This document shows positions 36,350 through 53,971 of a stretch of 64,000 bases of DNA, piece after piece. Both the position numbers and the translations under genes were made by a program. The DNA is taken from assembly GCA_018820275.1 (NCBI GenBank), contig JAHJOO010000056.1, positions 25,628 to 89,627 on the forward strand, written 5' to 3'. The stretch's first letter is position 1. Every line of letters begins with the position of its first letter. This DNA is from Alphaproteobacteria bacterium (GTDB lineage Bacteria; Pseudomonadota; Alphaproteobacteria; Caulobacterales; Caulobacteraceae). Under the pieces are notes generated by a model. It saw only the letters and a list, made by a program, of their open reading frames with translations. It made no database searches and was not told where the DNA came from.

Positions 36350-36772
36350 GTGTCATACCCAGAAAAGGTCCCTGGCGTCCAGCGCGCTGATCCTTCGCCG
36401 CGCATTCAACGCCGGCCCTCCCCCGCCGACTGGGGCGACGAGGAACCGCTCACGCTCCGTGAAGCGCTCGATCTTTTTTACCCCGACGGGCCGCTCACGC
36501 TCACGTCGTTCCGGACAGCCATACGCCAAGGCCACCTGCGCGCGGTCAAACGGCTGGGCCAATGGTGGGTCACGCCGGCGGCTGTGCGCGGCTTGTTCGA
36601 GCTTCAGGAATGGGTAGGCCGCGAAAAGGCGCGCGCCTTTACCTCCGGGCAGGGCGCGTCGACCGGCGCACCGGACGTCCGCTCGCCCCCATCTACTTCA
36701 TCCGGGACGGCGATAAGAACATCAGCACGGGCTGCGGCCCGGAACGCCTTGAAGAAGCTGAAATCGCCCTAG
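36350..36772 (+). CDS. Putative small HTH DNA-binding protein with a GTG start and uncertain extent
   Basis: LTLREALDLFYPDGPLTLTSFRTAIRQGHLRAVKRLGQWWVTPAAV is an excisionase/MerR-like HTH. The frame runs about 160 nt into the integrase-2 ORF. Confidence 0.3.
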   Translation: MSYPEKVPGVQRADPSPRIQRRPSPADWGDEEPLTLREALDLFYPDGPLTLTSFRTAIRQGHLRAVKRLGQWWVTPAAVRGLFELQEWVGREKARAFTSGQGASTGAPDVRSPPSTSSGTAIRTSARAAARNALKKLKSP

Positions 36773-37842
36773 CGGAGTATGTCACGGCGCGGCAGGCGGC
36801 CCTGCGTCCCAAGGGACGGGCCCAGGATCCTGAAGATGTCCTGATCGACGAGGTGGTCGCCCTCTACGCTCTGGAGAAGGCGCCCAAGGCCGCCGATCCC
36901 AAGGCGGTGGCCGCTCGGCTCGGCGCGATCCTCGACTGGTGGTCGGGGCGGACATTGGGCCACGTGCGCCGCAGCACCTGTCTGGCCTATGTCGCTCATC
37001 GCGTTCAACAGCCGGTCAAGTCGTTTAAAGACCCGTCGCGCGCGCGGCTGGTGTCGGCGGCGGGGGCGCGCCGTGAGCTCGAAGACTTGTCGGCGGCGAC
37101 GAGCTGGTGGGCCGCCGAGCATCCCCTGACCCGCAAGGTGACGTTCACCTATCCGGAAACGGGGGGCGAAAGCTCCCGCGACGCGCTTAGCCGCGCCCAA
37201 GTCGCGGCCCTGTTGCGTGCGGCGCGTGGCGCGCGGTTCCGCGATGGACGCTGGGAGCCGACCGCCGCCTCGACGCGGTCGAACCGCGCGCACCTGACGC
37301 GCTTTGTGCTGCTGGGCGTCTACACCGGCAGCCGCCCCGGCGTGCTTCCCAAGCTGCGGTGGTCGCCGTCAGACGACAGCGCCTGGGTCGATCTGGACCG
37401 GGGCTGGATCTTCCGCCGAGGTCGGCGCGAACCAGACAAGCCGAACAAGCGCCGTCCGATGCACCGCATTCCCAAACGGCTTCTCGCCCACCTGCGCCGG
37501 TGGCGCCGCCAGGACGACGCGCTGAACGCCGAGCGCGCCGAGCATGGGTTGGCCCCCGTCGAAACCGTCCTGCACCACGGCGGGCGGTCTCTGAGGGGCA
37601 GGGTCCGCACCGGTTACGAAGGGATCGTCGCCGATGCAGGGCTTCCCGAGGACGTTACGCCGCACTGGCAGCGCCACACCTGCGCGACCTGGCTCATGGA
37701 GGCCAACGTGCCGCTGTCGCGGGCGGCGCAGTACCTGGGCATGACCGTCCGCACGCTCGAAAAGCACTACGGCCACCACAGGCCGGATCACCAGTCCGAC
37801 GTCGGCCGCGCGCTGGCGCGCGGCGGCCGCGAACAACCCTGA
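36610..37842 (+). CDS. Tyrosine recombinase / integrase 2
   Basis: The N-terminus (MGRPRKGARLYLRAGRVDRRTGR...YFIRDGDKNISTGCG) is typical of an alphaproteobacterial integrase family. The C-terminus (HWQRHTCATWLMEANVPLSRAAQYLGMTVRTLEKHYGHH) is the catalytic region. Confidence 0.8.
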   Translation: MGRPRKGARLYLRAGRVDRRTGRPLAPIYFIRDGDKNISTGCGPERLEEAEIALAEYVTARQAALRPKGRAQDPEDVLIDEVVALYALEKAPKAADPKAVAARLGAILDWWSGRTLGHVRRSTCLAYVAHRVQQPVKSFKDPSRARLVSAAGARRELEDLSAATSWWAAEHPLTRKVTFTYPETGGESSRDALSRAQVAALLRAARGARFRDGRWEPTAASTRSNRAHLTRFVLLGVYTGSRPGVLPKLRWSPSDDSAWVDLDRGWIFRRGRREPDKPNKRRPMHRIPKRLLAHLRRWRRQDDALNAERAEHGLAPVETVLHHGGRSLRGRVRTGYEGIVADAGLPEDVTPHWQRHTCATWLMEANVPLSRAAQYLGMTVRTLEKHYGHHRPDHQSDVGRALARGGREQP

Positions 37843-39223: not shown

Positions 39224-40780
39224 TCAGATATAGAATTTGAATGGTTGTTTCTCGGCGCCTGCAGCGCTGCCCATGACCAGGATGTCCCCGACCTTGTCGG
39301 CAAACCGGATTGTCACAGGCATGGCGTCGCTGAAGTTGCAGGCGTTGTAGTTGATCTTGGTCAAACCCAGAATGTCGGTAAGCACCGCGCCGATCTGGGG
39401 CAGTCCGTTTGAGGCTCTCAACACCGTCACGTAGAGAGGGTTGGGCGTCTCGGGGCCGAGATAGGTGTCGATCCGCGGCGCGTAACCCGATGCCCACAGA
39501 TAGGCGTCGCGCTCGCCCAGGATCAGCGCTGTGCCCCGCAGGCAAGGATAGTCGCCGTCGCGGAAAAGCTTGGTTTCGCCATAGGTCGATTTGATACGGA
39601 CGCCGACGACATTGGTTTCCTGCGGCGCGGCTTCCACGAAGGCCTCCCACTCCTCATCGTTGAAGCTCGTGCGGCCATGGATGAAGAGCTCCGCGGGGTA
39701 GGCACCGAACTTCAACTTGTAGGTCTCCACCACCATGGAGAGGAGGTTTTTTGCGACAGCGCCGGAGAGATGAAACTCCTTCTCCCGCGTCTGCCAGGGT
39801 CCGTTCGCTCCGCGGAACACCACGCCGTCGCCCTCGCTCAGGAACATCTGGGCGGCGCAGCACACATAGTTCTGGGGGTGGTTGGGCAGCAGCTTGAAGA
39901 CGAGACCCACATAGCAGACCCCCGGTCTCATATCCGCAATGCGCCAAGGCGGGCTGCCTTGGGTCTTGTAAAAGAGGCCGGTCGCCAAGTTCCAAGCCAC
40001 CGTCGCCTCGTCCTGGGTGCCGCGGCGCGGATAGCCGGCGGCGTTCAAGAACTCCTGCGGCGCCAGCGTCGTCTCCCTCACGAGCTGGGAGGGCGCAGCC
40101 AGTTTGAGCAGCCGCGCCTTGATCTGCCGGTGGAAGTCGGGAACGTCGTCGAACACCTGCTCCAGCGACTGGTCGATGACGCCCGCCAGAAGGGGCAGAT
40201 CAGACCGGCTGGCCTGCTTCTTCCCATGCTCGCCGGGCGTGAGATCGCCTTTGCGCCGCTTGCCCATGTTCGGGCGGCAGGTCTCGAAAACGATCTCTGG
40301 GACCACGAACACCCAGACATCGATGGCGACCTCCTCGTGCGCCGCGTGCCGTTCGACCGGCGCGAGAAAGAGGTCAGCGGTCGCCGCAACCGCCTCATGG
40401 TGGTTGACCACATTCACCGTCTCGGCGATCCGGCCGCCGTCTATGGCGTAGGTCACGAGCTTTGCAGGGTCCAGGCGCAGGCCGAACGCCTCTTCTAGGC
40501 CAGGAAAATCGGACAGATGCAGCCGGTGCAGCTTGTCCCGCCGTCCTCGCGCCGGGATTTTCACTTCACCGCGCAAGACTTCAGCCCATTTCCGGAACAG
40601 GCTGAGGCCGTGCTGCGTGCCCACGACGCCAACGCGTATGTCGGGCCTGTCCGGGCCGTTTACCGGGCCGTAGAGATAGAGCCCGTCCTTGGGGTGATCC
40701 GACACCTGTCCATGCCTGAAACCCAGGCGAGGCTCTTCGATGTAGGTGGCTGGCAGCGAGGTTTCGGCGAAAACTGTCAT
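39224..40780 (-). CDS. Short prokaryotic Argonaute (MID-PIWI only)
   Basis: This 518-aa protein has PIWI-like blocks ([33 protein letters not shown]) and no N/PAZ region. It has an ATGA overlap with the upstream TIR-APAZ gene. Confidence 0.85.
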
Positions 40781-42156
40781 GCGTCCGCTTCCTCTTCCTG
40801 GAAGCCTGTCAGGGTCGACCGGTCCGTCTCTTCGGCATCTTCACCCAGCTGGTGGGTCTGGCGGGCAGTGACCGGTGCGGTGAACTGAACCGGCATGGCG
40901 TCCAGCGTGATGCGGTCTCCGGAACCCACCGCGAGATCCACATAGGGGCTTTCTCCCGCCAGCAGCTCCATGAACGCCATCAGCCGCCCGTGCCAGGCCT
41001 TGTTACGCCAGCCCGAACAGATGGACCGGCGCAAGCGGAACTGCGCGCGCTTGTCCGAGATGACGACGGTCTTGTCCGGCCCCGTCAGGTCCGAGAACAG
41101 GACGCGGCCCTTCAGCTTTAAATGGGGGTAGGGGAAAAGGCTCGGGGTCGCGCTGACCCCGTATTCCCACACCCGGTTTTTGGCCTTGTTGCGCAACATG
41201 GAGTTGCGCCGCTCGCCCTGGCGGCCCCAGCTCACGCGCTTGCCCAGGCCGAGTTTCGTGGCGTCGACGTGAAAAGCGGTGGCTCCGGAGAACTCTCGGG
41301 CGAAGAAGCCTTCGCGGACGCAATGTTTCTCCCACGACTGACGCAGAAGATTGTTCAAGAGACCGTGGGCCTCACGGCTCTTGATACCCAAGGCCCCGGT
41401 GCCGTCTGACATGAAGTCTTCGAGGCCGATGCGGGCTTCGATCCGGAACCGTCCCACGGGGAGGAAATGCTCCTCCATCTCGAGTGGGGAGACGAAGCCG
41501 AGAAACCCTTGGCCGAAGCGGGCAAGAGGAAGGCTGAAGCTGCGGCCGAGACGGCCGAGCAGGGCGTCGTCAGCCGGGCTTGTGGGCGTCAGATAAGAGA
41601 TCTCATCGGGCATACTCATGATGCGCAGCCAGTTCGACGTCAGCGTCTCGGGCGAACGCTCCACGGCGATCGCCAACCGCCGCTGATAGGCTGACCAGGC
41701 CGGCTGGATTACGCCGCCGCCCGCTTTGACGACCCCTTGGCGGTCCAGCGATTTCAGCAGGGAGGTCAGTCCCGGCGCCCAGCCAGGACAGAAGTCCACA
41801 TACTGCAGACCGCCGATGCCGAAGACCTTTTTGAAAGGCTTGAGCCGCAGAGGAATAATGAAGTTCGGATCCTGAAGCTGTTTGACGAGATCCTCCGCGA
41901 TGCTGATCTCCTCACGGACCCCGCGCCGCTGGAGCGTCTCATCGCTGCAGCACAGCAGCATACGCGCCGCCCGCTCCTGGAGTGACGATGTCAACTTCCC
42001 CCGCCACTCGTCCCCTGCGTCAAGGCCCAGGATGTCGGCGAAGACCCGGTAGCCAGCGGCTTCCAGCCGCGGGGCCAGCCACAAGACGAACGCGTCGTCG
42101 CCAGGCGTCGCCTTAGAGATGAATATCGAATCGCGAAGGGCGGAATCGTTCTCCAT
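40777..42156 (-). CDS. TIR-APAZ protein, the SPARTA effector partner
   Basis: The N-terminal TIR-like domain ([31 protein letters not shown]...[21 protein letters not shown]) is followed by about 300 aa of APAZ-like region. The gene is translationally coupled to the short pAgo. Confidence 0.85.
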
Positions 42157-42513: not shown

Positions 42514-44118
42514 ATGGGGGGTGAAGTGTCAAAATCGGCGCTGCTCGCCCATGCCCGATCCGCGGCCAAACACCTTTACGACCCGAAACATGCCCTGGAG
42601 GCACGTGCCGGCGTGTGCCTCGATCTGCTTTCAAAAGACGGTGCCGACGAGCGCCTTGATGGATTCCGGCGGGCTCTGCATGCATTGCCGATAGACGAAC
42701 GCCACTACTGGGTTGGAACGCTCTACACCCTGATGTTGCCAAGCAAGGTGCGGCGGTCGCAAGCCACATACTTTACGCCGCCTCCTGTGGCCGACGCCGT
42801 TGTCGAAATGGCGATTGCGGCTGGTTTCGATCTCGCCAAGGACGACGTGCTGGACCCCGCTGCCGGCGGGGCCGCCTTCCTCTCCACGCTCGCTGGTCGG
42901 ATGTCGATCGCTGAGCTGCCGCCACGCGAGGTATCGCACCGTCTGAACGGCATCGAGATCGACGAGGGCCTTGCGGTGCTTTCGCGTCGGCTGATTGCCG
43001 AACGCCTCGGCGCGCCGCTATCCCGCGAGGTTATCGTCTCAGGCGATGCGCTGCGTTACCCGATCCCAGCCTCATACGGCCTGGTCATCGCGAATCCCCC
43101 ATATGGCCGAGTATCGCTCGACGATGTCTCGGGCAACGCTTGGAAACACGTCGCGCACAGGGGTCACGTCAACAAGTACGCGTTGTTCACCGAGCTGTGT
43201 TTCCGACACGCTAAGCCGGGCGGGGTCGTCGCGCTCGTCATCCCTTCGAGCTTCCGGGCGGGTCCACTTTACGACCGCATGCGCACGTTCATCCGCTCGC
43301 AGGGCGAGGTGCTGAGCATTGGATCAATTGCTGGTCGCGACGGCGTCTTCGTCGACGTGGCGCAGGACATCAGTGTCTTGCTTGCGCGGAAGGGCAAGCC
43401 ACACCCTCGCGGCGCGATGGTATCGTTTCCGGTCATCGGGCGCGCGACCGCGACCGAGGCAGTCGTCGAGCAGGCATTGCCGCAGGAAGCTGGCGATGCA
43501 TGGCCGCTGCCAGCAGCGGATCCGCGCGACTACGGCGGCGCAACACTCGCCGATTACGGCGTCACGGCTCGCGCCGGATATTTCGTTTGGAACAGGGAGC
43601 GGGACAGGCTGGTCCAGAAGTTGGAGCGTCATCAGCGCGGCTACCCCCTCATATGGGCTAAAAATGTGCGCCTGCACGAATATTGCCGGCCCGCAGGCAA
43701 GAACAATGCGAGGGCAGATTTCGTCACGTTCGACGACGACAGCGCAGCGATCATCAAAACCGTAGCCGCCGTCATGCAGAGGACGACCAACGACAAGCAG
43801 CCGCGCCGCTTGATCGCCGCCATGGTCGATCCCGCAGTCATCGAAAAGTGGGGCGGGTTCGTGACTGAGAACCACACGATCGTGCTCACTGCGGACGATC
43901 CCGAGAAGCTGCGAACCGCCGTTGCCTTGCTCAACACCTCCGCGGTGGATCAGCGCTACCGGCGCGTGTCTGGCACCGCGGCTGTCTCCGTCACTCTCCT
44001 GCGGCAGCTGGATTTGCCAGAGCCGTCCGCCTTCGCATCCGCGCTCGTCAATGCAGGTGGCGACACCGAAATCGCTGCGATGACCGCCTATCGGCGGCTC
44101 GCGCTGGCAGACGCCTGA
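42514..44118 (+). CDS. N6-adenine DNA methyltransferase, Eco57I/gamma-class-like, in the DrmMI-like position
   Basis: The SAM motif VLDPAAGGAAFL and the catalytic motif IANPPYG (43093-43107) are present. Its stop overlaps the next start (TGATG). Confidence 0.85.
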   Translation: MGGEVSKSALLAHARSAAKHLYDPKHALEARAGVCLDLLSKDGADERLDGFRRALHALPIDERHYWVGTLYTLMLPSKVRRSQATYFTPPPVADAVVEMAIAAGFDLAKDDVLDPAAGGAAFLSTLAGRMSIAELPPREVSHRLNGIEIDEGLAVLSRRLIAERLGAPLSREVIVSGDALRYPIPASYGLVIANPPYGRVSLDDVSGNAWKHVAHRGHVNKYALFTELCFRHAKPGGVVALVIPSSFRAGPLYDRMRTFIRSQGEVLSIGSIAGRDGVFVDVAQDISVLLARKGKPHPRGAMVSFPVIGRATATEAVVEQALPQEAGDAWPLPAADPRDYGGATLADYGVTARAGYFVWNRERDRLVQKLERHQRGYPLIWAKNVRLHEYCRPAGKNNARADFVTFDDDSAAIIKTVAAVMQRTTNDKQPRRLIAAMVDPAVIEKWGGFVTENHTIVLTADDPEKLRTAVALLNTSAVDQRYRRVSGTAAVSVTLLRQLDLPEPSAFASALVNAGGDTEIAAMTAYRRLALADA

Positions 44119-46865
44119 TGGCACGTAAACGGCCCTATAATCGCCCACCGGGCACGCAGGGACGGGACAATGTGCGGCAGGTGGAGCTTGCCCGGCGCCA
44201 GGCGCTCGTCGCCAAGCTCACAGAGACAGCGACGAAGCGGGCCGCCAATCCAGTCCCACCATTGCAGCCGAAGCCGGAGCAGCCGTCGCGCGACGTGGAC
44301 GGTTACATGGCCGCGATCGCGGCCCATCCGCTTTATCGGCTCGGTGAAAAACACGCCGCAGAGCTCACCCTGACGTACGCGACCCTAGTCCGGTCAGCCG
44401 TTGAGATTGCCGGACAGGGTGACGCCAAGGTCGTGATGCCGTGGCCGCCATCCAAGGTGTCCCCATCGGCAATCGTCTCGCTGCTGACGATCGGCGCGAT
44501 CGGCAGCGCACCCCGCGAACATGTCGAGTTCCAAGGCACGCAGATTCCAAGCCGAGGGCGCGCCGACGAAGTGCGCGCGGTCGTGTTTCCGTACGCCCGC
44601 AGCACACACGCCCAAGCGAGGCAGGTGCAGGTCGATAGGCACGAGTTGGGCCGGATAAACTTCGAACACGTCGCGCGCTATCTCGGCAGCGACAGTGACG
44701 CGGCAAAAGATCTGCATCAGGTTCTCGCACGGGTCCGCCAGCTGAACGGACGCGCGTCTGACGGACGCGAATACGCCGAGTTCGAGCACCCCATCCTTGA
44801 CGAGGTCATTCCCCACGGCCCCGCCGGTGGGGACCGCCCATCCAACAGCTCTGTCCTTTGGCGTACGCGCGCCAAGACCGACATTGGCCGTCAGGCGCGC
44901 TCGGGCGAGGCGGATGATCCCGCCAAAGCCGCATACTTCATGTTCACGGTCCGCCGTGACGACCGGCTGGGCAACGAGCTGCGTGCCATCAAGCGGCCGC
45001 TTGATCTCCTCATCCTCGACCTGTCACGCAACGCTCGGGACCGCATCGGTTGGGACTGGGTGCGACGGGCTGGCGAGATGGTCGCGTCTATGCGGGAGAT
45101 CCACCCCTCGGCAGGCATCCTGGCCGTCGTTGATGATCCATGGTCATATCGCGCAGCCCGTTTTGACGTGCTCGCGAGGAGGCGGACCGGCAAGAATGGC
45201 AAAGCCTTCCCTGCGCATGGAAGCGTCGTCTATTGCCCGACCCCCGGGATACTTCAGGACGTCGGGCAGTGCGCTCCCTCATTCGAAGGTGCGCTGTCCA
45301 TCACTGTTGATGGGTTCTACGGCGACGTCGACCGCAACATCGAGCACCTGCGCGAACTCGCCAACCGCCTATCTGACATGGGGGATTCCGCCGGCGCCGC
45401 GACCGCCCGCAACCTGATGGGGACGGTCCGCCGGTCGGCGAGCTTACCCGGCTCGATCGCCGAGCTAAGCCGCTTTATCGAGCGCGAGACGTCGGCCGCT
45501 ATCGCCGACGACCGTCTCGCGACCTACCGCGCGACCGCCGACATCAGCACTTTGACCGACCCCACCAGCCTCGCGAGTCAGGTCGACGCCGAGAAGGGAG
45601 TGGCGGCTGAAGCCAGGTCTGTGATGCGAACGCTCGACCAGGCAACGCCGATGGCCTCGCTGATCGAGGATGTGATGCAGCCCGCGCTGCGATCGAGCTC
45701 CCGTTCCGTCTTCGTGTTCAGGTCCGACATGATCGCCGAGTTCGCCGCGGATAGGCTGGGCAAGTCGCATCCCAAGCTCGCCGAGCGGATCGGAAGCGGC
45801 GTCATACGCTTTGGCGGCGCACGCGCGCTCAACACCGTCGCCGACGCGCCGGCTTCCGCTCGCAACCAGTTCAAGCGCGCCATCGTCGTCGCCCCCACGA
45901 CGTCGACGATACTGGCCACGCTGGCGGAACCGTGGCTACCCGAGCAGATGGTGTTCCTGGCCGATGCGGATACGCTTGCGTTCGCCGCCCGCGATGCCGC
46001 GCGCCTCGCTAATGAGATCGGCGTTGACGCGCTTGCGGCGCGGCTGCGGACGTTCGCCGAGAAGGCAAACAGCCGCGTAGTGGAGATCGGCCGCCACACG
46101 GTGCAGCTGGATGCGGAGGCACCGTCGGAGGACGTCGAGTTCCCGACCGGTTCGGTAGTCGACCTCACTGGCGGCGGTCGGGGCGAACGCCGGCTGGTCG
46201 AAATCAAGCTCGGCAACGGGCAACGCATCATCGCCCGCCCGTCAACTGGCATGGTCTTGCGGGATGACGGCGCGGCGACGACCACGTTCGTCGAGCGACC
46301 CGCGTCACAGTTAAGACGTGGAGATGAAGTCTGCGTGATCGGAGCTGGGTTCATCGAGCGCGCCCGGTCGCTCGTGAACATCCGCGCGACCGCGGCCGAG
46401 GAAATCCGCGAATACCACAATCAGGTGGCGAAGCGGTTTGCCGCCATACCCGAGGACTCCACGAATGGCCGGCTCCGCGTCCTGGTGGCGCGGATGGGCC
46501 AGCCGGCTGTGCCGATCGAGCGCGCCAGATACTGGATCGACCTGCGTGATGAGATCGACAAGCCGCTCCACGAGGTCGTGCCGCATGCCCCGCAGGACCG
46601 GGACACCTTCATGCGGTTCACAGGGGCGCTCGGGATCGGACAGAAGCTGGCCGAGAGCTTCTGGCTGTGGGCCGTAGTCGCCCAACGTTACCACCGGATG
46701 CGCGCGGGGAACATCTTCCATGACGCCTTCCGCGGCATCCTAACTGATCCCCATGCCGCGCTCGCGAGCAACCGCAACCGGAGCGCCGACATCAGGGCGC
46801 TCCGCGCAATGGCTGAGGAGCACGTCGGGACCGTCGCCAACACGCGGATTATCGAGGCAGTATGA
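44118..46865 (+). CDS. Large uncharacterised protein (915 aa) with no helicase or NTPase motif visible
   Basis: The gene is translationally coupled on both sides (TGATG and ATGA). No Walker A or DEAH motif was found on reading the translation. Confidence 0.7.
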   Translation: MARKRPYNRPPGTQGRDNVRQVELARRQALVAKLTETATKRAANPVPPLQPKPEQPSRDVDGYMAAIAAHPLYRLGEKHAAELTLTYATLVRSAVEIAGQGDAKVVMPWPPSKVSPSAIVSLLTIGAIGSAPREHVEFQGTQIPSRGRADEVRAVVFPYARSTHAQARQVQVDRHELGRINFEHVARYLGSDSDAAKDLHQVLARVRQLNGRASDGREYAEFEHPILDEVIPHGPAGGDRPSNSSVLWRTRAKTDIGRQARSGEADDPAKAAYFMFTVRRDDRLGNELRAIKRPLDLLILDLSRNARDRIGWDWVRRAGEMVASMREIHPSAGILAVVDDPWSYRAARFDVLARRRTGKNGKAFPAHGSVVYCPTPGILQDVGQCAPSFEGALSITVDGFYGDVDRNIEHLRELANRLSDMGDSAGAATARNLMGTVRRSASLPGSIAELSRFIERETSAAIADDRLATYRATADISTLTDPTSLASQVDAEKGVAAEARSVMRTLDQATPMASLIEDVMQPALRSSSRSVFVFRSDMIAEFAADRLGKSHPKLAERIGSGVIRFGGARALNTVADAPASARNQFKRAIVVAPTTSTILATLAEPWLPEQMVFLADADTLAFAARDAARLANEIGVDALAARLRTFAEKANSRVVEIGRHTVQLDAEAPSEDVEFPTGSVVDLTGGGRGERRLVEIKLGNGQRIIARPSTGMVLRDDGAATTTFVERPASQLRRGDEVCVIGAGFIERARSLVNIRATAAEEIREYHNQVAKRFAAIPEDSTNGRLRVLVARMGQPAVPIERARYWIDLRDEIDKPLHEVVPHAPQDRDTFMRFTGALGIGQKLAESFWLWAVVAQRYHRMRAGNIFHDAFRGILTDPHAALASNRNRSADIRALRAMAEEHVGTVANTRIIEAV

Positions 46866-49800
46866 AGGGTCTGTCGAACACGAAGCTGTCTGGGATCGAT
46901 GTCGAGCTCAAGGAAGCGGTCTGCGACGCGCTGGTGAATGCGCTCGTCGAACGCGTGAGCGGCACCGACGAGCGAGGGCAGACGATCTACGGCGGATCGC
47001 CGCGACGTGGAATATTCGCTGGCCAGCTGCTCCCGCGCTTCGACGTCAGCGGCGCCCTCGACGAGACCACCGACATCCGCATCGCCGCGATCGGGATTGA
47101 CTTTGTGGTGGGTGCGAACGGCTCCGCCGCTATCTCAGCGACGCCCCGATTCTCCGTATACGTGCGAGTCATCCCACAGTGGCGCGACCTCTCTGGCGGT
47201 GGCGGCCAGCTCGATTTCGACTTCAAGCTGCAGAAAGCGATCCAGCAGCAGATCGACGCTGCGATCCGCGTCGACCGGACGACCGCCCTGAAGGCCGCCA
47301 ACCTCGAACGGCCCGACTGGAAGGCGATGGACGAGAATCGCCGGTCGAAGGTGCGCGCCGAGCGGGCCCAAATCCTCGCCGATGTGCGCGTCAAGGCCTA
47401 CGCTGCATTCGGGATCAAGCTGGTGTCGGGCGTGCCCGAAGAACCTGCCCCGACCCAAGAGCCCCCGGCAGGAAACGGGGACGCCACCGGGGAATCCACC
47501 GAACAGCCGGCGCCGATCTCGCGTCTCATCCGCGAGGGCCGAGAGCTACCGCTGACGCTCGTCGACCCCGCGCCGATACCGGGCAAGTGGCGGCGGCTCG
47601 ACCTCTCCCTCCCAACCTTTGATTTCGATAGCGAAATGGGGTCGCCGGCCCTCGCCGCCGCGCTCGTCACCTACAATGCCAGCCTCGCGGCGGCGGTGGC
47701 GGCCCAACTCGAAGCGTGGGCTACCGGGGAGGGTGCCGCCGAGGCATGGCGCGACGTCAACGTCTCACCCGGCGACACCTTGGACGAGGCCCGGTGGAAT
47801 GCGGCCGTCGCGGCGCTTGCCACCAGGCCCATCGATCGTACGCGCGTCATCCCTGATCTTTCCCGCATCGCCCTGAAGGTCGAGCGCCAGGTCGACTTCC
47901 TGGATTCCACTCGGCTGTCGCTGCGGATCATGCTGGATAACCAGTCACCCGAGCCCACGCCGCAGGACGCGCGCGGTCGCTGCAACACCGTCTTCGGCGC
48001 CGGACTGACACTCGCCCTTCCCGCCGCCGCGCACCGGCCGCTCCGGCTCGATAGGGTTGAGCCCTCCTACCGCTTCCGCGACCACCTCGACTATCCGGCG
48101 ATCGGGCTCAACTGCGGGGTCGAGGCGGTCGAAGCCGGGGACCTACTCACTCTGGGCACCACCGCCGCCCCTCGCTTCTCGCAACCGCGGATCGTTGCCC
48201 GAAATATTGACCTGCCCTTTCAGTTTGCGATTCTCAAGGATCGGTCCTTCGACGCGAAACGGCTGCTCGAGCTGCCGCGTGCATACAGCGAATGGATAGA
48301 CGGCCAAGAGAAGCGGCTGCGCGACACCGTAACGAAGGGCCTGACACGGGACGATGCGGCGGTCGAAAAGGCTCGTCTGGCGAAGGACATCGCTGCCCAG
48401 CGCGCCGAGGCTCGCTACATCGAGCGCGGCGTCGAGATCCTGATCGCGTCGAAGGAGGCCAGCGACCAATTGGCCGGCAAACCGCCGGGCGATGGGGGCG
48501 ACCTCGCGCGACGCGCCGCGCCCTGGATGGCATGGACGCTCACCAACGAGGCCTTCGCGTTGCGCGATGCGCACGACACGAGCCGAGGCTGGCGCCTGTT
48601 CCAGATGGCGTTCGTGCTCTCCCACATCCCGGTGTTTGCATCCCGCATGGCCGAGTGGCGCGAATTCCACGACTCGATGCTCGACGAGGACGGAGCCAGC
48701 CTGCTCTACTTCCCGACCGGCGGCGGCAAGTCGGAGGCGTTCTACGGCACACTGCTGTTTGCCATGTTCCTCGACCGCCTGCGCGGCAAGGACCGCGGGG
48801 TCACCGCCTTAATCCGCTATCCCCTGCGGCTCCTGACACTCCAACAGGCGCAGCGATTGCTCAAGCTGGTCGTGCGCGCCGAAATGGTGCGCCGTCGCCA
48901 GAAGGTCGGCGGGTGGCCATTCGAGATGGGCTTCTGGGTGGGAAGCCAGAACACGCCTAACCACTATGGTGCGTTTCGCGCCGATATCCCGTTCGCCAAC
49001 GATGCTGACTTCGCTGACGACAGCACGCTCGACGGTGAGACGGGCGACGAAGACCAACGCGCCCGCGGCCGCCGATACGCCGAGGCCCGCGAAGCTTTCG
49101 ACAAGATCCCCGAGTGCCCGGTTTGCGGAGAACCCACTGGTTTGCGGCGGGACGAGAACGAGGGTCCGACCGGGCGGCGCGTGGCCATCGTGTGCTTCAA
49201 CGACAGGTGTGCGTGGAACCGCGAGCACGGCCGGCGACACCCTCTCCCGTTTCTACTGACCGACGATGCCATCTACGCCCGCGCGCCGGCGATTGTGCTC
49301 GGCACCGTCGACAAGCTGGCCATGCTGGGCCAGCATACCGGCACGATCTCCAAGGTGCTCGGCATGTTCGGGCTCGCCCGCCGTGTCGATCAATGGGGGA
49401 ACCTGTATACGCCGCGGCGCGAGGAGGACCTGCGCCGCGATCCGGCCGACGACAACAGCTCGAACGTGCATCCCGCATACGCGGACGGGAAGCGGGTCTT
49501 CCACGATCCGTTCCCGTCGCTGATCATCCAGGACGAGGCGCACCTTCTGGAGGAGAGCCTCGGGACGTTCAGCGGCCTGTTCGACACGCTGCTCGACGCG
49601 GCGTTCGAGGAGATCGCCGAGATGGGCGGCGATGGACTGGACGTTGCCCGGCGATGGACCGGCGACGGCTGGGGCGCTCCTCGGATGCCGAAGGTCATCG
49701 CGGCGACGGCCACAATCTCGGCGCCCGAACGCCAGCTCGAGACACTCTACCAGCGGCACCCGTTGCGCTTCCCCTATCCCGGTCCGGATCTCTACCATTC

Positions 49801-51190
49801 CTTTTTCGCCGAGCCGGCACCGCCGCCGGCCGTGAACCCTGAGCGAGTCGAGCTGGCGAAGCGGCTACCGTTCGCGCAGGCACCCGAGCAGACCGCACCA
49901 TGGATGCGCCTTTACGTGTCGCTGATGACGAACGATGCGACGCACACGGTCACCACGGTCGGGGTGCTAGCCGCGTTCCACGGCATCGTCACGGCGCTGT
50001 GGGACGGCATGATCGCGGACGACCGCCGCGCTACGACCATCGCGTCGATCCGGGCGGCGGTGTCGTCGGGCCGTGCGGGGGACTGGCACCGGGCGGCGGT
50101 CGACCGTGCCCTCGCGGAGGGCCGCCAGGACGAGATCATGGCGCTGGTGGACCTGCACCGGATTGCGCTCGCATACGTTACTAACAAAAAAGGCGGCGAC
50201 CAGATCATTGACGCCCTGAGCGCCGCAGTCGAGCACCAGCATCGCCGCCTCGGCCGCGAGAACTCGCCGTTCGCCAGCCGCCTGATCTCGGGCGGCATCG
50301 ACATGAAGGATATCCAGCGCGTGATGGAGGAGGCCGAGACCTCCTTCGATGGCAAAGACTATCCCGACATCGGCGCGACGGTTCGGAACATCGTCGCAAC
50401 CTCGGCGATCAGCCACGGCGTCGACGTCGACCGCTTCAACAGCATGTTCTTTGCGGGGCTGCCGTCCGACATTGCCGAATACATCCAGGCCTCCAGCCGC
50501 GTCGGCCGCACTCACGTTGGATTCGTGATGCTGCTGCCGACGCCGCAGAACCGGCGTGACCGATACGTTGTGGAGACGCACGACATTTTCCACCGCTTCC
50601 TCGAGCGGATGATCGCGCCGCCCGCTGTCGAGCGCTGGGCGGAGAACGCGATCAAGCGCGCGATGGCGTCGTATGTGCAGGCGTGGGCGATGCTGCGCGA
50701 GGCCCGCGAGTTCATCAGGCAGGACGACGCCAAGAAGCCCGACGTCCTCCAGATGGACCAGGTCAGCCGCCTCGCGTCGCTCGCGCGCCTAAACCACGTC
50801 GCCCTCTGCGAGGAGATCGGCGACTTCATGCTCAGGGCCAGCGGCTACACCGGAAAGGGCCCATCAAAGCTGGGCGCGCCGCACTACGAGGAGTTCTACC
50901 GCGCCCTCGTCGACAAGCAGGTCGACGTGTTCGTCCGCAGCATCGCGAGCCGCGGCACGACCTCGAGCCTGCGGGAATACTGGGATGACCTTCCGGCATT
51001 CCAGAAACCGATGACGTCGCTGCGCGACGTGGACGAGGCCGGCTACATCGTCGCGGCGGGTCGCGACCCGCTCGCGCGCAGCCGATCGACCGACATCGAC
51101 CGTGGACAGCTGGCCGAGGTCATGCGCGCCATCAGGACCCAGCGGGGCACCGCCTCGGACATGGATGCCGACGGAGGAAGCGATGGCTGA
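46862..51190 (+). CDS. DrmA-like superfamily-2 helicase (1442 aa)
   Basis: Motif I FPTGGGKSEAF lies at about 48713-48733 and motif II IIQDEAHLL has its DEAH at 49532-49543. C-terminal helicase motifs are present (ATSAISHGVDVDRF, QASSRVGR), and there is a long N-terminal extension. Confidence 0.85.
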   Translation: MKGLSNTKLSGIDVELKEAVCDALVNALVERVSGTDERGQTIYGGSPRRGIFAGQLLPRFDVSGALDETTDIRIAAIGIDFVVGANGSAAISATPRFSVYVRVIPQWRDLSGGGGQLDFDFKLQKAIQQQIDAAIRVDRTTALKAANLERPDWKAMDENRRSKVRAERAQILADVRVKAYAAFGIKLVSGVPEEPAPTQEPPAGNGDATGESTEQPAPISRLIREGRELPLTLVDPAPIPGKWRRLDLSLPTFDFDSEMGSPALAAALVTYNASLAAAVAAQLEAWATGEGAAEAWRDVNVSPGDTLDEARWNAAVAALATRPIDRTRVIPDLSRIALKVERQVDFLDSTRLSLRIMLDNQSPEPTPQDARGRCNTVFGAGLTLALPAAAHRPLRLDRVEPSYRFRDHLDYPAIGLNCGVEAVEAGDLLTLGTTAAPRFSQPRIVARNIDLPFQFAILKDRSFDAKRLLELPRAYSEWIDGQEKRLRDTVTKGLTRDDAAVEKARLAKDIAAQRAEARYIERGVEILIASKEASDQLAGKPPGDGGDLARRAAPWMAWTLTNEAFALRDAHDTSRGWRLFQMAFVLSHIPVFASRMAEWREFHDSMLDEDGASLLYFPTGGGKSEAFYGTLLFAMFLDRLRGKDRGVTALIRYPLRLLTLQQAQRLLKLVVRAEMVRRRQKVGGWPFEMGFWVGSQNTPNHYGAFRADIPFANDADFADDSTLDGETGDEDQRARGRRYAEAREAFDKIPECPVCGEPTGLRRDENEGPTGRRVAIVCFNDRCAWNREHGRRHPLPFLLTDDAIYARAPAIVLGTVDKLAMLGQHTGTISKVLGMFGLARRVDQWGNLYTPRREEDLRRDPADDNSSNVHPAYADGKRVFHDPFPSLIIQDEAHLLEESLGTFSGLFDTLLDAAFEEIAEMGGDGLDVARRWTGDGWGAPRMPKVIAATATISAPERQLETLYQRHPLRFPYPGPDLYHSFFAEPAPPPAVNPERVELAKRLPFAQAPEQTAPWMRLYVSLMTNDATHTVTTVGVLAAFHGIVTALWDGMIADDRRATTIASIRAAVSSGRAGDWHRAAVDRALAEGRQDEIMALVDLHRIALAYVTNKKGGDQIIDALSAAVEHQHRRLGRENSPFASRLISGGIDMKDIQRVMEEAETSFDGKDYPDIGATVRNIVATSAISHGVDVDRFNSMFFAGLPSDIAEYIQASSRVGRTHVGFVMLLPTPQNRRDRYVVETHDIFHRFLERMIAPPAVERWAENAIKRAMASYVQAWAMLREAREFIRQDDAKKPDVLQMDQVSRLASLARLNHVALCEEIGDFMLRASGYTGKGPSKLGAPHYEEFYRALVDKQVDVFVRSIASRGTTSSLREYWDDLPAFQKPMTSLRDVDEAGYIVAAGRDPLARSRSTDIDRGQLAEVMRAIRTQRGTASDMDADGGSDG

Positions 51191-53417
51191 GGCGAACGGC
51201 GGCACCAAGGACTGGCGCAGCGGCGGCGTTGGACGCAGGCCGTCCGCGTTCGGCGGCGGGCGGAGCGAACCAGATCGCCTCGAACCGCCGACGATGTCGC
51301 GTTCGCGCGTGCAGTTGGCCAGCTCGTATGCGCCGGGCGTGCTCATGACGTGGGAGGGCGGAAAGGGAATCTGCCGAACGGTCCCGCTCGCGAACGACAT
51401 CACCAAGGAGCTTAGGCCGACCACGATCGAGCTGATCTACGAGAATCTGCGCGACTTCGTGACCAACTGGCGCGAACGCGCGATGAAGGCGGTCCCCGAC
51501 GCCCTCCCCGAACTCGTACTCGACGCCCCGTTCCTCAACTCCCGCACGGGCGAGGCGAACCTCGAACGGTCGGACTTCCAGATGACGGGACCGGACCGCG
51601 TCGGATACGTCCCCTATCCGCTGCTGTACCGGTGCGGCGTCTGCGGATCGACCCGCGAATACGAGAGCGTCGCCGACCAATGCCGGCAGCCGCTTCCGAA
51701 GAAGTGCCATGACCACGATGCGCGCTGGACCCAGGTCGATGTCGTCTACGCGCACTGGTCGGGCGACATCCAGCCGCTCAGCCCATTCAACTTCAACTAT
51801 GACGCGCAAAGCGGCGAGGTGCGTCAGATCAGGATGTGCACCTGCGGGTCGAACAGCTTCAAGCTCCTAAACTCGGCACCGGTGTTCTCGGAATGGAAGT
51901 ATGTCTGCGAGGACTGCGGCAACTCGCGCACGCTGAAGAAGGCCAATCCTGATGTGCTCGCGCGCCTGCAGGCGGATCAGCTCGCCGGGGGCCGCACCTT
52001 CCAGTTCGTCGAGGTCGACATGCTGCCGGTATCATACCGGGCCAACTCCACCTTCTACCCCCAGCGCACCAGCTTCATCGAGTTTCAGGATAGTTCGGTC
52101 GTCGACCTGATGACGTCGCAGCGGACCGGCGCTCTGACAGCGAAGCTCGCGCAGATCCACAACATCCCGTTCGATGAACCGACCGACAACGAGATCAGGG
52201 AGAAGGTCGAGGCCTCCCCGGCGCATACGGGAGAATGGGACGATTACTTCGGGTTCATGGCCATGGCCCAGCGCGCGGACGAGAGCGGGCGACCCGATCG
52301 CGCCCGAAATTACCGGGACCAGGCGACCGAACTGCGCGAGGGCTGGTTCGCGGCCGGCATCGTCGACCGAGGTCACCTCGGCAGCCCGGGCGTCCTGCGC
52401 GCGATCGCACTTCGCGAGGAATGGACCCGTCGCTACGACCCGATCCGGCTGACCGTCCAGCACGACGCATTCACCCGCGAGCATATCGACGAGGCTATGT
52501 CGCGGCATGCCGCCGTCGACGTGATGGAGCCTGACATCACGCTGACCGACGTCGTGAACGATCCCGAGAGAAGGGCGCGCTACCAAGCGTCAACCGGCAA
52601 CCTGCTCGCTCACTTGGGCGTGAAGCGCCTTGTACTCGTGAGGGGCCTGCCGATCTGCGAGTTCAGCTTCGGCTATTCCCGCGTCTCCTCGACTCCGGTC
52701 TACAAGCGAGAATACCAGGGACAGAGCATCGATATGCCGGTGCGTCTCAAGGCTTTCGACCAACTTCCTATCCAAGGGACAAAGCGGCCGATCTACGTCA
52801 CGCAGCAGCGGAATGAGGCGCTCTACTTCAAGCTTGACGAGGCGCGCGTCATCCGCTGGCTGAAGGCCAACGCGGTCAGCGACGTGCCCGACGAGGCGCT
52901 GGGTCGCGCGTTTCTCGAGCGCTACGAGGACTTTGGTCCCTTTCTTGAGATGTTCAAGGACCGCGAGGGGACGGGCGGCTACCCGAGGACCGTTCCGGCC
53001 TACGTCTATCTCCTCCTCCACACGCTGTCGCACCAAATGATGCACTCGCTCGCGGACACGTCGGGCATCGATCGCGACGGAACTGGTGAGCACATCTTCC
53101 CCGCCGACCTCGCCTTCGTGATCTACCGAAAGGGGATGACGCCGGACCTTGGCAACATATCCGCGATGTGGCGCAACCATTCCGACGAGTTCCTCCGCCG
53201 GGGGATCGACCCGCGGACGCTGCGGTGCGGCTCGGGCAGCCTGTGCGACGCGCGGGGTGGAGCTTGCCCAGCCTGCATCATGGTGTCGGAGGTGAGTTGC
53301 ATCGCGTCAAACCTTCTGCTGTCGCGCGCCGTGCTCAAGGGCGGGCGAGGACCAGAATGGGAACCTAGGTCGGCTCCCGACCTCGTCGGCTTCCTCGATC
53401 CCGCGGTCGCCGGGTGA
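51183..53417 (+). CDS. DrmB-like DUF1998 protein
   Basis: The C-terminal four-Cys cluster (CGSGSLCDARGGACPACIMVSEVSC) is typical of DUF1998, and there are extra Cys pairs (CGVCGS, CEDCGNS). The ATG at 51183 overlaps the DrmA-like stop. An alternative ATG lies at 51294 (MSRSRVQLASSYAPGV). Confidence 0.8.
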   Translation: MAEANGGTKDWRSGGVGRRPSAFGGGRSEPDRLEPPTMSRSRVQLASSYAPGVLMTWEGGKGICRTVPLANDITKELRPTTIELIYENLRDFVTNWRERAMKAVPDALPELVLDAPFLNSRTGEANLERSDFQMTGPDRVGYVPYPLLYRCGVCGSTREYESVADQCRQPLPKKCHDHDARWTQVDVVYAHWSGDIQPLSPFNFNYDAQSGEVRQIRMCTCGSNSFKLLNSAPVFSEWKYVCEDCGNSRTLKKANPDVLARLQADQLAGGRTFQFVEVDMLPVSYRANSTFYPQRTSFIEFQDSSVVDLMTSQRTGALTAKLAQIHNIPFDEPTDNEIREKVEASPAHTGEWDDYFGFMAMAQRADESGRPDRARNYRDQATELREGWFAAGIVDRGHLGSPGVLRAIALREEWTRRYDPIRLTVQHDAFTREHIDEAMSRHAAVDVMEPDITLTDVVNDPERRARYQASTGNLLAHLGVKRLVLVRGLPICEFSFGYSRVSSTPVYKREYQGQSIDMPVRLKAFDQLPIQGTKRPIYVTQQRNEALYFKLDEARVIRWLKANAVSDVPDEALGRAFLERYEDFGPFLEMFKDREGTGGYPRTVPAYVYLLLHTLSHQMMHSLADTSGIDRDGTGEHIFPADLAFVIYRKGMTPDLGNISAMWRNHSDEFLRRGIDPRTLRCGSGSLCDARGGACPACIMVSEVSCIASNLLLSRAVLKGGRGPEWEPRSAPDLVGFLDPAVAG

Positions 53418-53971
53418 CACGCGAGGTCCTGATATCGCCGAAGGCGACGGCCAGGCTGGTCGTTACAATGCCTCCCGAGCCAAGCAGACTTGGGACCGCA
53501 TTGGCCGAAGACATCGCGAGCGACTACGTCACCCTCACGCCCACAACCGACGCGTTCCGCCACATCGCCTTGCTGGCCCGCGAGCAGCTCACGATCATGG
53601 TCCCATACATCGACTCGGTCGGCGCGGACTGGGCGGCGGAGATGTTCGAAGGCACGACCGCGGCCGAGCGCACGCTCGTGATCAGGGAAGCGGCGCAGCT
53701 CGGCAGGTGCGGCAGCCCGGGACGGCGCCTCGAGCGCGCCGCGACGCGGATCATCGACTATGGCGGGGCGGACCTCAGCCAGGAGACCTTCCACGCCAAG
53801 GTCGTGCTGGCGGACGGTGTCGCCGCATACGTCGGGTCAGCAAACCTGCTAAGGCGCTCGAAGATGGCGAACCTCGAGTGCGGGATGCTTGTCGAGGGTC
53901 CAGCGGTGCAGGCCGTCAAGGTTCTCCTGGATGCCGTGATCTCAGCCGCCAGCCTCTCAAATACACGTTGA
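53414..53971 (+). CDS. DrmC-like PLD-family (HKD) nuclease
   Basis: A single HKD motif FHAKVVLADGVAAYVGSANLLRRS is present, with the His codon at 53792-53794. The GTG start overlaps the previous stop (GTGA). Confidence 0.85.
   Translation: MTREVLISPKATARLVVTMPPEPSRLGTALAEDIASDYVTLTPTTDAFRHIALLAREQLTIMVPYIDSVGADWAAEMFEGTTAAERTLVIREAAQLGRCGSPGRRLERAATRIIDYGGADLSQETFHAKVVLADGVAAYVGSANLLRRSKMANLECGMLVEGPAVQAVKVLLDAVISAASLSNTR

What the first reader, a model, noticed from the sequence alone, without database searches (positions are those of the whole stretch)
44118..46865. A 915-aa orphan protein embedded in the DISARM-like operon
The gene is translationally coupled to both the methyltransferase and the DrmA-like helicase, so it is almost certainly a functional subunit. 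No Walker A/B, DEAH, HKD, methylase or Zn-finger motif is visible in the translation. Its position matches where DISARM systems carry their class-specific component. Its function could be sensor, regulator of the methylase, or scaffold, and it cannot be read from the sequence.
Basis: inference. Interest (0 to 1): 0.65.

Follow-up and report, generated by a model that had tools for sequence, protein, structure and literature searches.

The report
Dead-helicase subunit of a DISARM variant
The 915-residue "orphan" is a real, conserved protein whose predicted fold is a helicase that has lost its ATP-burning motifs, and it is the signature extra subunit of an undescribed variant of the DISARM anti-phage system.

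Summary
The ORF at 44118-46865 (+) is real and overlaps both neighbours: TGATG with the methylase gene, ATGA with drmA. It is not an orphan. It has 108 close homologues and 264 cluster representatives among 1.84 billion proteins, almost all 830-960 aa. In 42 species-level genomes, 36 show the full order N6-adenine methylase, X, DrmA-like helicase, DrmB-like, PLD DrmC. The rest lack drmC, are truncated or are cut by a contig end. Distant relatives (16-25% identity, including Polaromonas plasmid pPNAP03) keep X directly upstream of drmA with overlapping stop and start codons. The methylase can instead sit at the 3' end. No Pfam, NCBIfam or PADLOC model matches X, DrmD and DrmE models included. 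An AlphaFold model (pLDDT 80.7) matches only superfamily-2 helicases (FANCM, MDA5/RIG-I, Dicer-2, Chd1). It shows two RecA-like domains with a helical insert, then a partial Hint/intein-like beta module and a highly conserved helical C-terminal domain with no PDB match. Motif I is an invariant "WP" with no GK[ST], and motif II has lost its glutamate. My best reading is a non-catalytic, helicase-derived DNA-binding or adaptor subunit of DrmAB, filling the DrmD/DrmE slot. The fold and linkage are shown; the mechanism is inferred. This is a new variant of a known kind.

The parts
42514..44118 (+). N6-adenine DNA methyltransferase of the operon (534 aa), the predicted self-marking enzyme.
   Evidence: Pfam N6_Mtase 3.7e-9 and Eco57I 4.9e-8; PADLOC MTase_II PDLC03338 2e-98. 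NPPY at residue 194. Its stop overlaps X's start by 1 nt.
44118..46865 (+). X: the 915-aa protein of the finding, a predicted ATPase-dead SF2 helicase-like subunit.
   Evidence: ORF. 108 homologues and 264 family representatives. AlphaFold model pLDDT 80.7, pTM 0.72. Foldseek hits are only SF2 helicases in PDB and BFVD.
44295..45317 (+). X residues about 60-400: first RecA-like domain with degenerate motifs. The motif I position is 'VVMPWPP' (W109 and P110 invariant). The motif Ia-like stretch is 'FPYARSTHAQAR'. The motif II position is 'LILDLSR' with no Glu. The motif III position is 'VDDPW'.
   Evidence: Secondary structure of the model. Motif columns in 44 diverse members. hhalign places DLLILDLSRNAR against the DrmD motif II stretch DLVVIDESHNFRN, but not significantly.
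45318..45692 (+). X residues about 401-525: all-helical insertion between the two RecA-like domains, as in FANCM and RIG-I-like helicases.
   Evidence: Model helices H403-525. The top Foldseek hits are the helicases that carry such an insert.
45693..46097 (+). X residues about 526-660: second RecA-like domain. It contains the non-conserved chance 'GKS' at residues 548-550.
   Evidence: Beta-alpha-beta pattern E529-533, E563-566, E585-591, E610-616. Marginal profile match to the MjDEAD domain 2 start (E 2.8). Regex check.
46149..46343 (+). X residues about 678-742: partial Hint/intein-like beta module without splicing residues.
   Evidence: Foldseek of the C-terminal model: RadA and other inteins, 49 columns, rmsd 1.2 A, 33% identity, probability 1.0, E 0.13. 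Profile against PDB sequences: Pab PolC intein, E 0.015. Pfam Intein_splicing E 0.0099 in 3 members. NCBI names P0066 'Hint domain-containing protein'.
46344..46862 (+). X residues 743-915: helical C-terminal domain, the most conserved part of the family (Y766-H767, W806, PHAP 822-825, W849, R857). No structural match was found.
   Evidence: Domain conservation. Invariant columns in A2. No PDB fold match for the helical part.
46862..51190 (+). DrmA-like SF2 helicase (1442 aa). Walker A GGGKS (620) and DEAH (891) are intact. It has an N-terminal extension of about 400-570 aa that is specific to this subtype.
   Evidence: PADLOC DrmA 9.2e-94. NCBIfam DrmAS 1.1e-110, below the curated cut-off. 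Motifs. Its ATG overlaps X's stop. The N-terminal region is conserved in distant loci.
51183..53417 (+). DrmB-like protein. The likely start is the ATG at 51183, preceded by GGAGGA, giving an 8-nt overlap with drmA. The longest ORF starts at 51102.
   Evidence: PADLOC DrmB 8.2e-14. NCBIfam DrmB_fam 6.5e-11, below cut-off. Three CxxC motifs; start-site reading. Homologues are called at 733-744 aa in L004, L054, L057 and L058; only L004 shows the same 8-nt overlap.
53414..53971 (+). DrmC, a short phospholipase-D-family nuclease candidate (185 aa).
   Evidence: Pfam PLDc_2 at 30.8 bits, above the gathering score of 27. PADLOC DrmC 3.5e-10. HxKxxxxD at residue 127.

Best explanation
X is the class-specific accessory subunit of a distinct DISARM-type defence operon. 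The operon order is N6-adenine methylase, X, DrmA with a long N-terminus, DrmB, PLD DrmC.

X descends from a superfamily-2 helicase. It has two RecA-like domains with a helical insert, but it has lost the P-loop lysine and the Walker-B glutamate, so it should not hydrolyse ATP.

I propose the following. X is made in step with DrmA through the conserved overlap of its stop codon with the drmA start codon. It binds the DrmA-DrmB motor through its highly conserved Hint-like plus helical C-terminal region. It uses its helicase-like cleft as a static DNA clamp or sensor that recruits or licenses DrmAB on invading, unmethylated DNA. In this reading it fills the role that DrmD (class 1) or DrmE (class 2) plays elsewhere.

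Shown: the gene is real, the family exists, X is strictly linked to drmA, the fold is SF2-like, the ATPase motifs are lost, and the other four enzymes have intact motifs.

Inferred: complex formation with DrmAB, DNA binding, and a sensor or licensing role.
For: - Gene and coupling.
- Family size: 108 homologues and 264 representatives, nearly all 830-960 aa.
- Context: 36 of 42 species-level loci have the collinear order methylase-X-A-B-C.
- Distant relatives at 16-25% identity keep X directly upstream of drmA: L048 (Polaromonas pPNAP03), L049, L050, L052, L053, L054, L057 and L058. The X stop and drmA start overlap by 1-20 nt in all ten loci with gene calls.
- The methylase position varies: it is 3' of drmC in L058.
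- Fold: model pLDDT 80.7. All significant Foldseek hits in two libraries are SF2 helicases, with FANCM at 1.4e-7 and MDA5, RIG-I, LGP2, Dicer-2, Hel308, Chd1 and phage SNF2-like helicases following.
- Motif loss holds in all 44 diverse members, and there is no conserved Walker A or DExH.
- The C-terminal region is the most conserved.
- X is the fastest-evolving of the five proteins. Its mean identity is 61% against 69-73% for the others, and it is the lowest in 29 of 33 loci. This fits a subunit exposed to phage-driven selection.
- The enzymatic partners are intact.
- Literature: drmE deletion abolishes class 2 defence (10.1101/2021.12.28.474362, citing Ofir 2018). The roles of DrmD and DrmE relative to DrmAB are an open question (PMC9142583).
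Against: - No interaction, DNA-binding or defence data exist for this operon.
- No co-folding could be run.
- Global TM-scores to helicases are low (0.15-0.34). The fold call therefore rests on local 3Di alignment statistics and on the secondary-structure and motif register.
- Sequence profiles give no significant helicase match.
- Faster evolution could simply reflect weaker constraint.
- One distant relative (P0252) sits without any DrmA nearby.
- Conserved residues at the former ATP site (D301, D339/D340, E229, H224 in the close clade) could mean a different ligand or an activity rather than a dead site.
Confidence: 0.55

Rival explanations
1. X is a very divergent DrmE. That would make it the same family as the class 2 DISARM accessory protein, and the locus an ordinary DISARM with an adenine methylase swapped in.
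For: X has the same position, directly upstream of drmA. In the class-2-like locus of L. plantarum plasmid CP096865 the order is DrmMII, an 801-aa protein, DrmA, DrmB, which parallels methylase-X-A-B here. hhalign of the X family (A2) against that 801-aa family (A4) gives one collinear 278-column alignment. It spans X 443-741 and residues 322-643, E = 0.065, and covers the helical insert, the second RecA-like domain and the 'GD-x-I/V' beta module.
Against: No PADLOC DrmE model hits any of 32 close or 9 distant X members even at E <= 1-10. NCBIfam gives nothing. The hhalign probability is below 1%. The 801-aa Lactobacillales protein is itself not recognised as DrmE by PADLOC or NCBIfam, and it could not be linked to canonical DrmE. 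A bona fide Bacillus DrmE was not retrieved, so there was no positive control.
Confidence: 0.2
2. X is an enzyme with a re-purposed active site at the former ATP pocket, for example a metal-dependent nuclease or phosphoesterase that acts as the effector. This would explain why DrmC is small and dispensable in other DISARM systems.
For: Acidic and histidine residues are conserved in the close clade at the motif II, motif III and 'EFEHPILDE' positions: D301, D339, D340, H224, E229. W109, P110, P225 and E229 are conserved family-wide. drmC is dispensable in class 1 and class 2 DISARM (10.1101/2021.12.28.474362).
Against: Across the wider family D301 is replaced by N, Q, V or P in several members. 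The 'TDDP' motif varies (TQDT, THDI, TNDA, CNDP, GDDG). This is not expected for catalytic residues. No nuclease fold or family match was found. Weak Toprim_3 hits (E 0.06-0.2) map to the second RecA-like domain, to residues not conserved family-wide.
Confidence: 0.1
3. X is chiefly a partner of the methyltransferase, as a specificity, loading or inhibitory subunit, analogous to the helicase-like Res subunit paired with Mod in Type III restriction-modification.
For: There is a one-base stop/start overlap with the methylase gene in the window. The overlap is 1-4 nt in L001, L002, L004 and L052. The methylase directly precedes X in most loci.
Against: The methylase is at the 3' end of the operon in L058. 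It is absent from the 4-10 kb upstream of X in L050/L051 and L053. It is separated from X by 22-23 nt in L054 and L057. The X-drmA overlap, by contrast, is universal. The methylase (534 aa) has about 240 residues after its catalytic domain, enough for its own target-recognition domain.
Confidence: 0.12

Closest known systems
DrmE (class 2 DISARM accessory protein, function unknown)
   Same: A large protein of about 800-900 aa with no annotated domain. It is encoded immediately upstream of drmA in an operon with drmB, drmC and a methylase. DrmE is essential for class 2 defence (10.1101/2021.12.28.474362, citing Ofir 2018). A DrmE-position protein from Lactobacillales gives a weak collinear profile alignment to X.
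   Different: There is no significant sequence or profile similarity. X accompanies an N6-adenine methylase rather than the C5-cytosine DrmMII, and a DrmA subtype with a long N-terminal extension. The DrmE fold could not be examined here.
DrmD (class 1 DISARM SNF2-like helicase)
   Same: An accessory SF2-fold protein of a DISARM operon that carries an N6-adenine methylase. Foldseek hits for X include SNF2 remodelers (Chd1, ISW1, INO80, phage SNF2-like). A non-significant hhalign match places X 'DLLILDLSRNAR' on the DrmD motif II stretch 'DLVVIDESHNFRN'.
   Different: DrmD is an intact ATPase recognised by SNF2/DrmD models (positive control). X matches none of them. It lacks the Walker A lysine and the Walker B glutamate in all 44 members examined and carries different C-terminal domains.
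FANCM/Hef and RIG-I-like (MDA5, LGP2, Dicer) SF2 translocases and sensors
   Same: These are the best structural matches. They have two RecA-like domains with a helical insertion that clamps duplex nucleic acid. Several act as nucleic-acid sensors in immunity (established knowledge).
   Different: The similarity is at fold level only, with 8-10% identity and low global TM-scores. Those proteins are ATPases. X has no ATPase motifs and has unrelated N- and C-terminal parts.
Pseudohelicases (helicase-fold proteins without ATPase motifs, e.g. yeast Utp25; PMC9539457)
   Same: The concept is the same: an SF2 helicase scaffold retained as a non-catalytic binding or assembly factor.
   Different: They are unrelated in sequence, organism and pathway. 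This is an analogy only.

Membership tests
DISARM system (operon level) | DrmA: SF2 (YprA-like) helicase | tested here: met
   PADLOC DrmA 9.2e-94. NCBIfam DrmAS 1.1e-110, though at 371 bits it is below the curated cut-off of 950. GGGKS and DEAH are present.
DISARM system (operon level) | DrmB: separate DUF1998-type zinc-binding protein after drmA | tested here: met
   PADLOC DrmB 8.2e-14 and NCBIfam DrmB_fam 6.5e-11 over the C-terminal 200-240 residues, below the curated cut-off. There is no Pfam DUF1998 hit. Three CxxC motifs are present. The match is weak but positionally consistent.
DISARM system (operon level) | DrmC: PLD-family protein | tested here: met
   Pfam PLDc_2 at 30.8 bits (gathering score 27). 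PADLOC DrmC 3.5e-10. HxKxxxxD at residue 127.
DISARM system (operon level) | A DNA methyltransferase in the operon | tested here: met
   N6_Mtase and Eco57I domains, and NPPY. It scores as a generic MTase_II in PADLOC, not as DrmMI.
DISARM class 1 / class 2 (PADLOC definitions, PMC9252829) | Class-defining accessory gene: DrmD (class 1) or DrmE (class 2) | tested here: not met
   No DrmD or DrmE model hits X or any of 41 relatives. The DrmD control was positive. There was no DrmE positive control.
Superfamily-2 helicases | Two tandem RecA-like domains | tested here: met
   Foldseek against PDB: 13 hits at E <= 1e-3, all SF2 helicases. The same holds for BFVD. The secondary-structure register is consistent. 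This rests on a predicted model, not an experimental one.
Superfamily-2 helicases | Walker A (GK[ST]) and Walker B (DExx) ATPase motifs | tested here: not met
   The motif I position is 'h-L-x-W-P' and the motif II position is 'D-[LAV]-[ST]-R' in 44 diverse members. The only GKS (548-550) is not conserved and lies in a helix.
Superfamily-2 helicases | Significant match to helicase sequence profiles (DEAD, ResIII, SNF2, Helicase_C) | tested here: not met
   There is no Pfam hit at E <= 10 in 32 members. PDB profile searches give only E 2.8 to a DEAD-box protein. hhalign to DrmD and DrmA is not significant.
Hint/intein domains | Hint beta fold | tested here: inconclusive
   The match is partial. 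It covers 49 residues at rmsd 1.2 A to mini-inteins (probability 1.0, E 0.13). The profile gives E 0.015 to the Pab PolC intein, and Pfam Intein_splicing gives E about 0.01. It covers roughly a third of an intein.
Hint/intein domains | Splicing or autoprocessing residues (N-terminal Cys/Ser, TxxH, terminal HN) | tested here: not met
   No conserved Cys or Ser lies at the module start, and there is no TxxH or HN. C739 is invariant only in the close clade.

The most novel reading that the evidence does not exclude
X defines a third class of DISARM. In this class an ATPase-dead, FANCM/RIG-I-like pseudo-helicase is the infection sensor or licensing factor. It clamps foreign (unmethylated or end-containing) duplex DNA and, through its conserved Hint-like and helical C-terminal region, releases or loads the DrmAB motor. 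On this reading DrmE, and perhaps DrmD, would be divergent versions of the same helicase-derived sensor slot.
Probability: 0.3. Interest if true: 0.72.

Novelty: new variant of a known kind. Interest (0 to 1): 0.55.

Why it matters
How DISARM tells foreign from self DNA, and what its variable accessory proteins (DrmD, DrmE) do, is an acknowledged open question (PMC9142583). This family gives a third, unannotated accessory component with a readable architecture. It has a helicase scaffold without an engine, a Hint-like module and a strongly conserved C-terminal domain, and it is rigidly coupled to a particular DrmA subtype.

The family offers a clean test case. Does a non-catalytic helicase-like subunit act as sensor or adaptor for DrmAB? 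Current detection tools (PADLOC, NCBIfam) have no model for X. By PADLOC's published rules for complete class 1 and class 2 DISARM, which require DrmD or DrmE, these loci would not be called complete DISARM. A profile built from the alignments here would fix that.

Tried and rejected
- Sequence-profile searches of X and its relatives against Pfam, NCBIfam, PADLOC and PDB sequences gave nothing significant.
- hhalign of the X family against DrmD and against the window's own DrmA showed no homology. X is therefore not a recognisable degenerate DrmA paralogue.
- I tried to obtain a canonical DrmE for a positive control. Plasmid searches gave only a Lactobacillales class-2-like locus. Its DrmE-position protein is unrecognised by PADLOC and NCBIfam, and its family could not be extended.
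- Toprim idea: the weak Toprim_3 hits (E 0.06-0.2) map to residues 585-640 and rest on 'LADADTL', which is not conserved family-wide. I rejected this.
- Active intein idea: I rejected this because no splicing residues are present.
- L002/L003 first looked like a three-gene minimal system (methylase-X-helicase). The helicase there is C-terminally truncated relative to the window's (aligned to residue 1233 of 1442) and lies next to an integrase fragment. It is a decayed copy, not a minimal core.
- The promoter and terminator scan of the operon found nothing above shuffled expectation.
- The supplement of the YprA-family survey (PMC12458937) does not list the Polaromonas proteins or a named class for this operon. 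No paper was found describing a third DISARM class.

Full report
**Observation.** The ORF at 44118-46865 (+) encodes 915 aa starting at an ATG. It is the second of five tightly packed genes.
- 42514-44118: an N6-adenine methyltransferase with Pfam N6_Mtase/Eco57I hits, PADLOC MTase_II at 2e-98 and an NPPY at residue 194.
- 44118-46865: X.
- 46862-51190: a DrmA-like helicase (PADLOC DrmA 9e-94, GGGKS and DEAH intact).
- 51183 (longest ORF from 51102) to 53417: a DrmB-like protein (PADLOC DrmB 8e-14, three CxxC motifs).
- 53414-53971: a PLD-family DrmC (PLDc_2 above the Pfam threshold, HxKxxxxD).

The junctions are cTGATGg (1-nt overlap), ATGA (4 nt), ATGGCTGA preceded by GGAGGA (8 nt) and a 4-nt overlap at 53414-53417 (coordinates). 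The single regex Walker-A hit (AADRLGKS, 543-550) lies in a predicted helix and is not conserved, so it is noise.

**Not an orphan.** A search of 5.8 billion proteins found 108 homologues, almost all 905-923 aa, at 35-94% identity. Those with names are called 'hypothetical protein', with one 'Hint domain-containing protein'. Most come from Sphingomonadales, Hyphomicrobiales/Rhizobiales, Rhodobacterales and Caulobacterales. An exhaustive profile search of 1.84 billion cluster representatives found 264 family members at E <= 1e-3. The full-length ones are 830-960 aa and align end to end, so the architecture is fixed and the family is small. None of 32 close and 9 distant members matches any Pfam, NCBIfam or PADLOC model. 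The DrmD control from a Bacillus cereus plasmid was recovered by both the PADLOC and NCBIfam DrmD models.

**Genomic linkage in close relatives.** A scan of one genome per GTDB species gave 42 loci. Thirty-six show the full collinear order methylase-X-DrmA-DrmB-DrmC. The rest lack drmC (two Paracoccaceae loci and one Agrobacterium locus), are cut by a contig end, or are fragments.

**Genomic linkage in distant relatives.** Relatives at 16-25% identity show the same operon.
- Polaromonas naphthalenivorans plasmid pPNAP03: N-6 methylase, 943-aa hypothetical protein, DEAD/DEAH helicase, hypothetical protein, PLD.
- L054 and L057: the same order.
- L058: the order is X-DrmA-DrmB-296 aa-methylase, so the methylase has moved to the 3' end.
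- L053 and L050/L051: no methylase in the 4-10 kb upstream of X.

In all ten loci with gene calls, the X stop overlaps the drmA start by 1-20 nt. The methylase-X junction ranges from a 4-nt overlap to a 23-nt gap. The invariant partner of X is therefore this DrmA subtype, whose N-terminal extension is also conserved, and not the methylase. One distant relative (P0252) lies without a DrmA, next to an AAA_21 ATPase. L002/L003 is a decayed copy with a truncated helicase.

**Fold of the helicase-like core.** An AlphaFold2 model built on a 32-sequence alignment has mean pLDDT 80.7 and pTM 0.72. Foldseek against the PDB gives 13 hits at E <= 1e-3, all superfamily-2 helicases. These are the FANCM translocase (1.4e-7), MDA5, LGP2, RIG-I, Dicer-2 and Hel308, with Chd1, RadD and RecQL5 next. 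The viral BFVD library also returns only SNF2-like, DEAD and other SF2 helicases. Global TM-scores are low (0.15-0.34), as expected for multi-domain proteins with different domain orientations. The assignment therefore rests on local alignment statistics plus the motif register.

**Motif register.**
- A beta strand ending 'VVMPWPP' is followed by a loop and a helix. This is the motif I position.
- 'VVFPYARSTHAQARQ' resembles motif Ia.
- 'DLLILDLSRNAR' sits at the motif II position.
- 'ILAVVDDPW' sits at the motif III position.
- A helical insert follows (residues 401-525).
- A second beta-alpha-beta domain follows (residues 526-660).

In 44 members spanning 16-67% identity, the motif I position is 'h-L-x-W-P' with W109 and P110 invariant and never GK[ST]. 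Motif II is 'D-[LAV]-[ST]-R' with no glutamate. The loss of the ATPase motifs is therefore ancient and family-wide. X is best described as a pseudo-helicase.

**C-terminal region.** A separate model of residues 662-915 (pLDDT 83.3) shows two parts.
- A beta module at about 678-742 superposes on mini-inteins: 49 columns, rmsd about 1.2 A, up to 33% identity, probability 1.0, E 0.13. The broad family profile also finds the Pab PolC intein among PDB sequences (E 0.015). Pfam Intein_splicing gives E about 0.01 in three members. No splicing residues are conserved, so this is a structural Hint-like fragment.
- The helical domain (743-901) plus the terminal strand has no PDB match. It nevertheless holds most of the family-wide invariant residues (Y766-H767, W806, A824-P825 of 'PHAP', W849, R857) and is the most conserved region.

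**Evolutionary rate.** Across 33 complete loci the mean identity to the window is 61% for X. The methylase, DrmA, DrmB and DrmC are at 69%, 72%, 73% and 72%. X is the least conserved protein in 29 of the 33 loci.

**Mechanism (inferred).** The other four proteins keep their catalytic motifs, and X is the only non-enzymatic component.
- The universal X-drmA translational coupling suggests that X is a stoichiometric partner of the DrmAB motor.
- The conserved C-terminal region is the likeliest docking surface.
- The helicase-derived core, whose closest structural relatives clamp duplex nucleic acid, is the likeliest DNA-binding part.

I therefore propose that X is a static DNA-binding adaptor or sensor that recruits or licenses DrmAB on foreign DNA. 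It would occupy the slot of DrmD or DrmE. DrmE is essential in class 2 (10.1101/2021.12.28.474362, citing Ofir 2018). The roles of both accessory proteins are explicitly unresolved (PMC9142583). Confidence in the fold and linkage is high. Confidence in the mechanism is moderate.

**Rivals.**
1. A divergent DrmE. The position matches, and there is one collinear but non-significant profile alignment (E 0.065, 278 columns) to the DrmE-position protein of a Lactobacillales class-2-like locus. No DrmE model hits X, and I could not retrieve a canonical DrmE.
2. A re-purposed active site. The acidic and histidine residues are conserved in the close clade but vary across the family.
3. A methylase partner. 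This is weakened by the variable position of the methylase gene.

**Comparison and novelty.** At operon level four of the five DISARM features are met. The class-defining accessory gene (DrmD or DrmE, PMC9252829) is not. The recent YprA-family survey notes 'many uncharacterized DISARM-like classes' but does not describe this one or this protein. No paper on a third class was found. I rate it a new variant of a known kind: a DISARM-type system with a new, helicase-derived but catalytically dead accessory subunit.

**Context.** The operon lies in a lower-GC island (about 30-60 kb; GC 0.61-0.67 against 0.70-0.75 in the flanks). The island sits next to tRNA-Val and contains three tandem tyrosine-recombinase genes. 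A complete SPARTA pair (TIR-APAZ plus short pAgo) lies divergently upstream of the methylase. DUF4238 and IS genes lie downstream.

Noticed in passing
window 39224-42156 (-): A complete SPARTA-type system lies divergently upstream of the operon. The TIR-APAZ gene is at 40777-42156 (PADLOC Aga_TIR-PNTD 7e-155; Pfam TIR_2). The short pAgo gene is at 39224-40780 (PADLOC pAgo_I 2e-201).
   Followed up: partly
window 30086-30160 and about 30000-60000: tRNA-Val (GAC) sits at the left edge of a lower-GC stretch (0.61-0.67 against 0.70-0.75 in the flanks). This is probably an integrated defence island.
   Followed up: partly
window 34340-37842 (+): Three tandem, overlapping ORFs lie here. Two have Phage_integrase hits (34340-35701 and 36562-37842). 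This looks like a tyrosine-recombinase trio, as in recombinase-in-trio mobile elements.
   Followed up: no
window 54119-56313 (-) and 56819-58048 (-): A DUF4238 protein (6.7e-34) is paired with an unannotated 436-aa protein just after drmC. An IS1-like transposase follows. The gene pair could be another defence module.
   Followed up: no
L058 1463-13342: A distant version of the operon has the order X-DrmA-DrmB-296 aa-N6 methylase. The methylase is at the 3' end, followed by an AAA_11/AAA_12 helicase gene.
   Followed up: partly
JGI sample 3300047160 (no DNA held), relative P0252: An 894-aa distant relative of X (E 1e-16) stands without any DrmA/B/C. It lies after an AAA_21/AAA_23 ATPase gene and two small genes, in an island with HIRAN, a cytosine methylase and an integrase. 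The X fold may be used in another system.
   Followed up: no
L004 4479-8216: In a 9.4-Mb genome, a 1245-aa protein with a weak reverse-transcriptase (RVT_1) hit lies directly upstream of the methylase-X-DrmA-DrmB block. drmC appears to be missing there.
   Followed up: no
L056 2239-11320 (L. plantarum plasmid CP096865): A class-2-like DISARM locus (DrmMII, 801 aa, DrmA, DrmB) has a DrmE-position protein that no PADLOC or NCBIfam model recognises. That protein has only 8 known relatives. The DISARM accessory slot seems more diverse than current models cover.
   Followed up: partly
window 46862-48600 (DrmA residues 1-570): The DrmA of this subtype has a long N-terminal extension that canonical DrmA profiles do not cover. 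The extension is conserved in every X-linked locus (38-54% identity in distant loci).
   Followed up: partly
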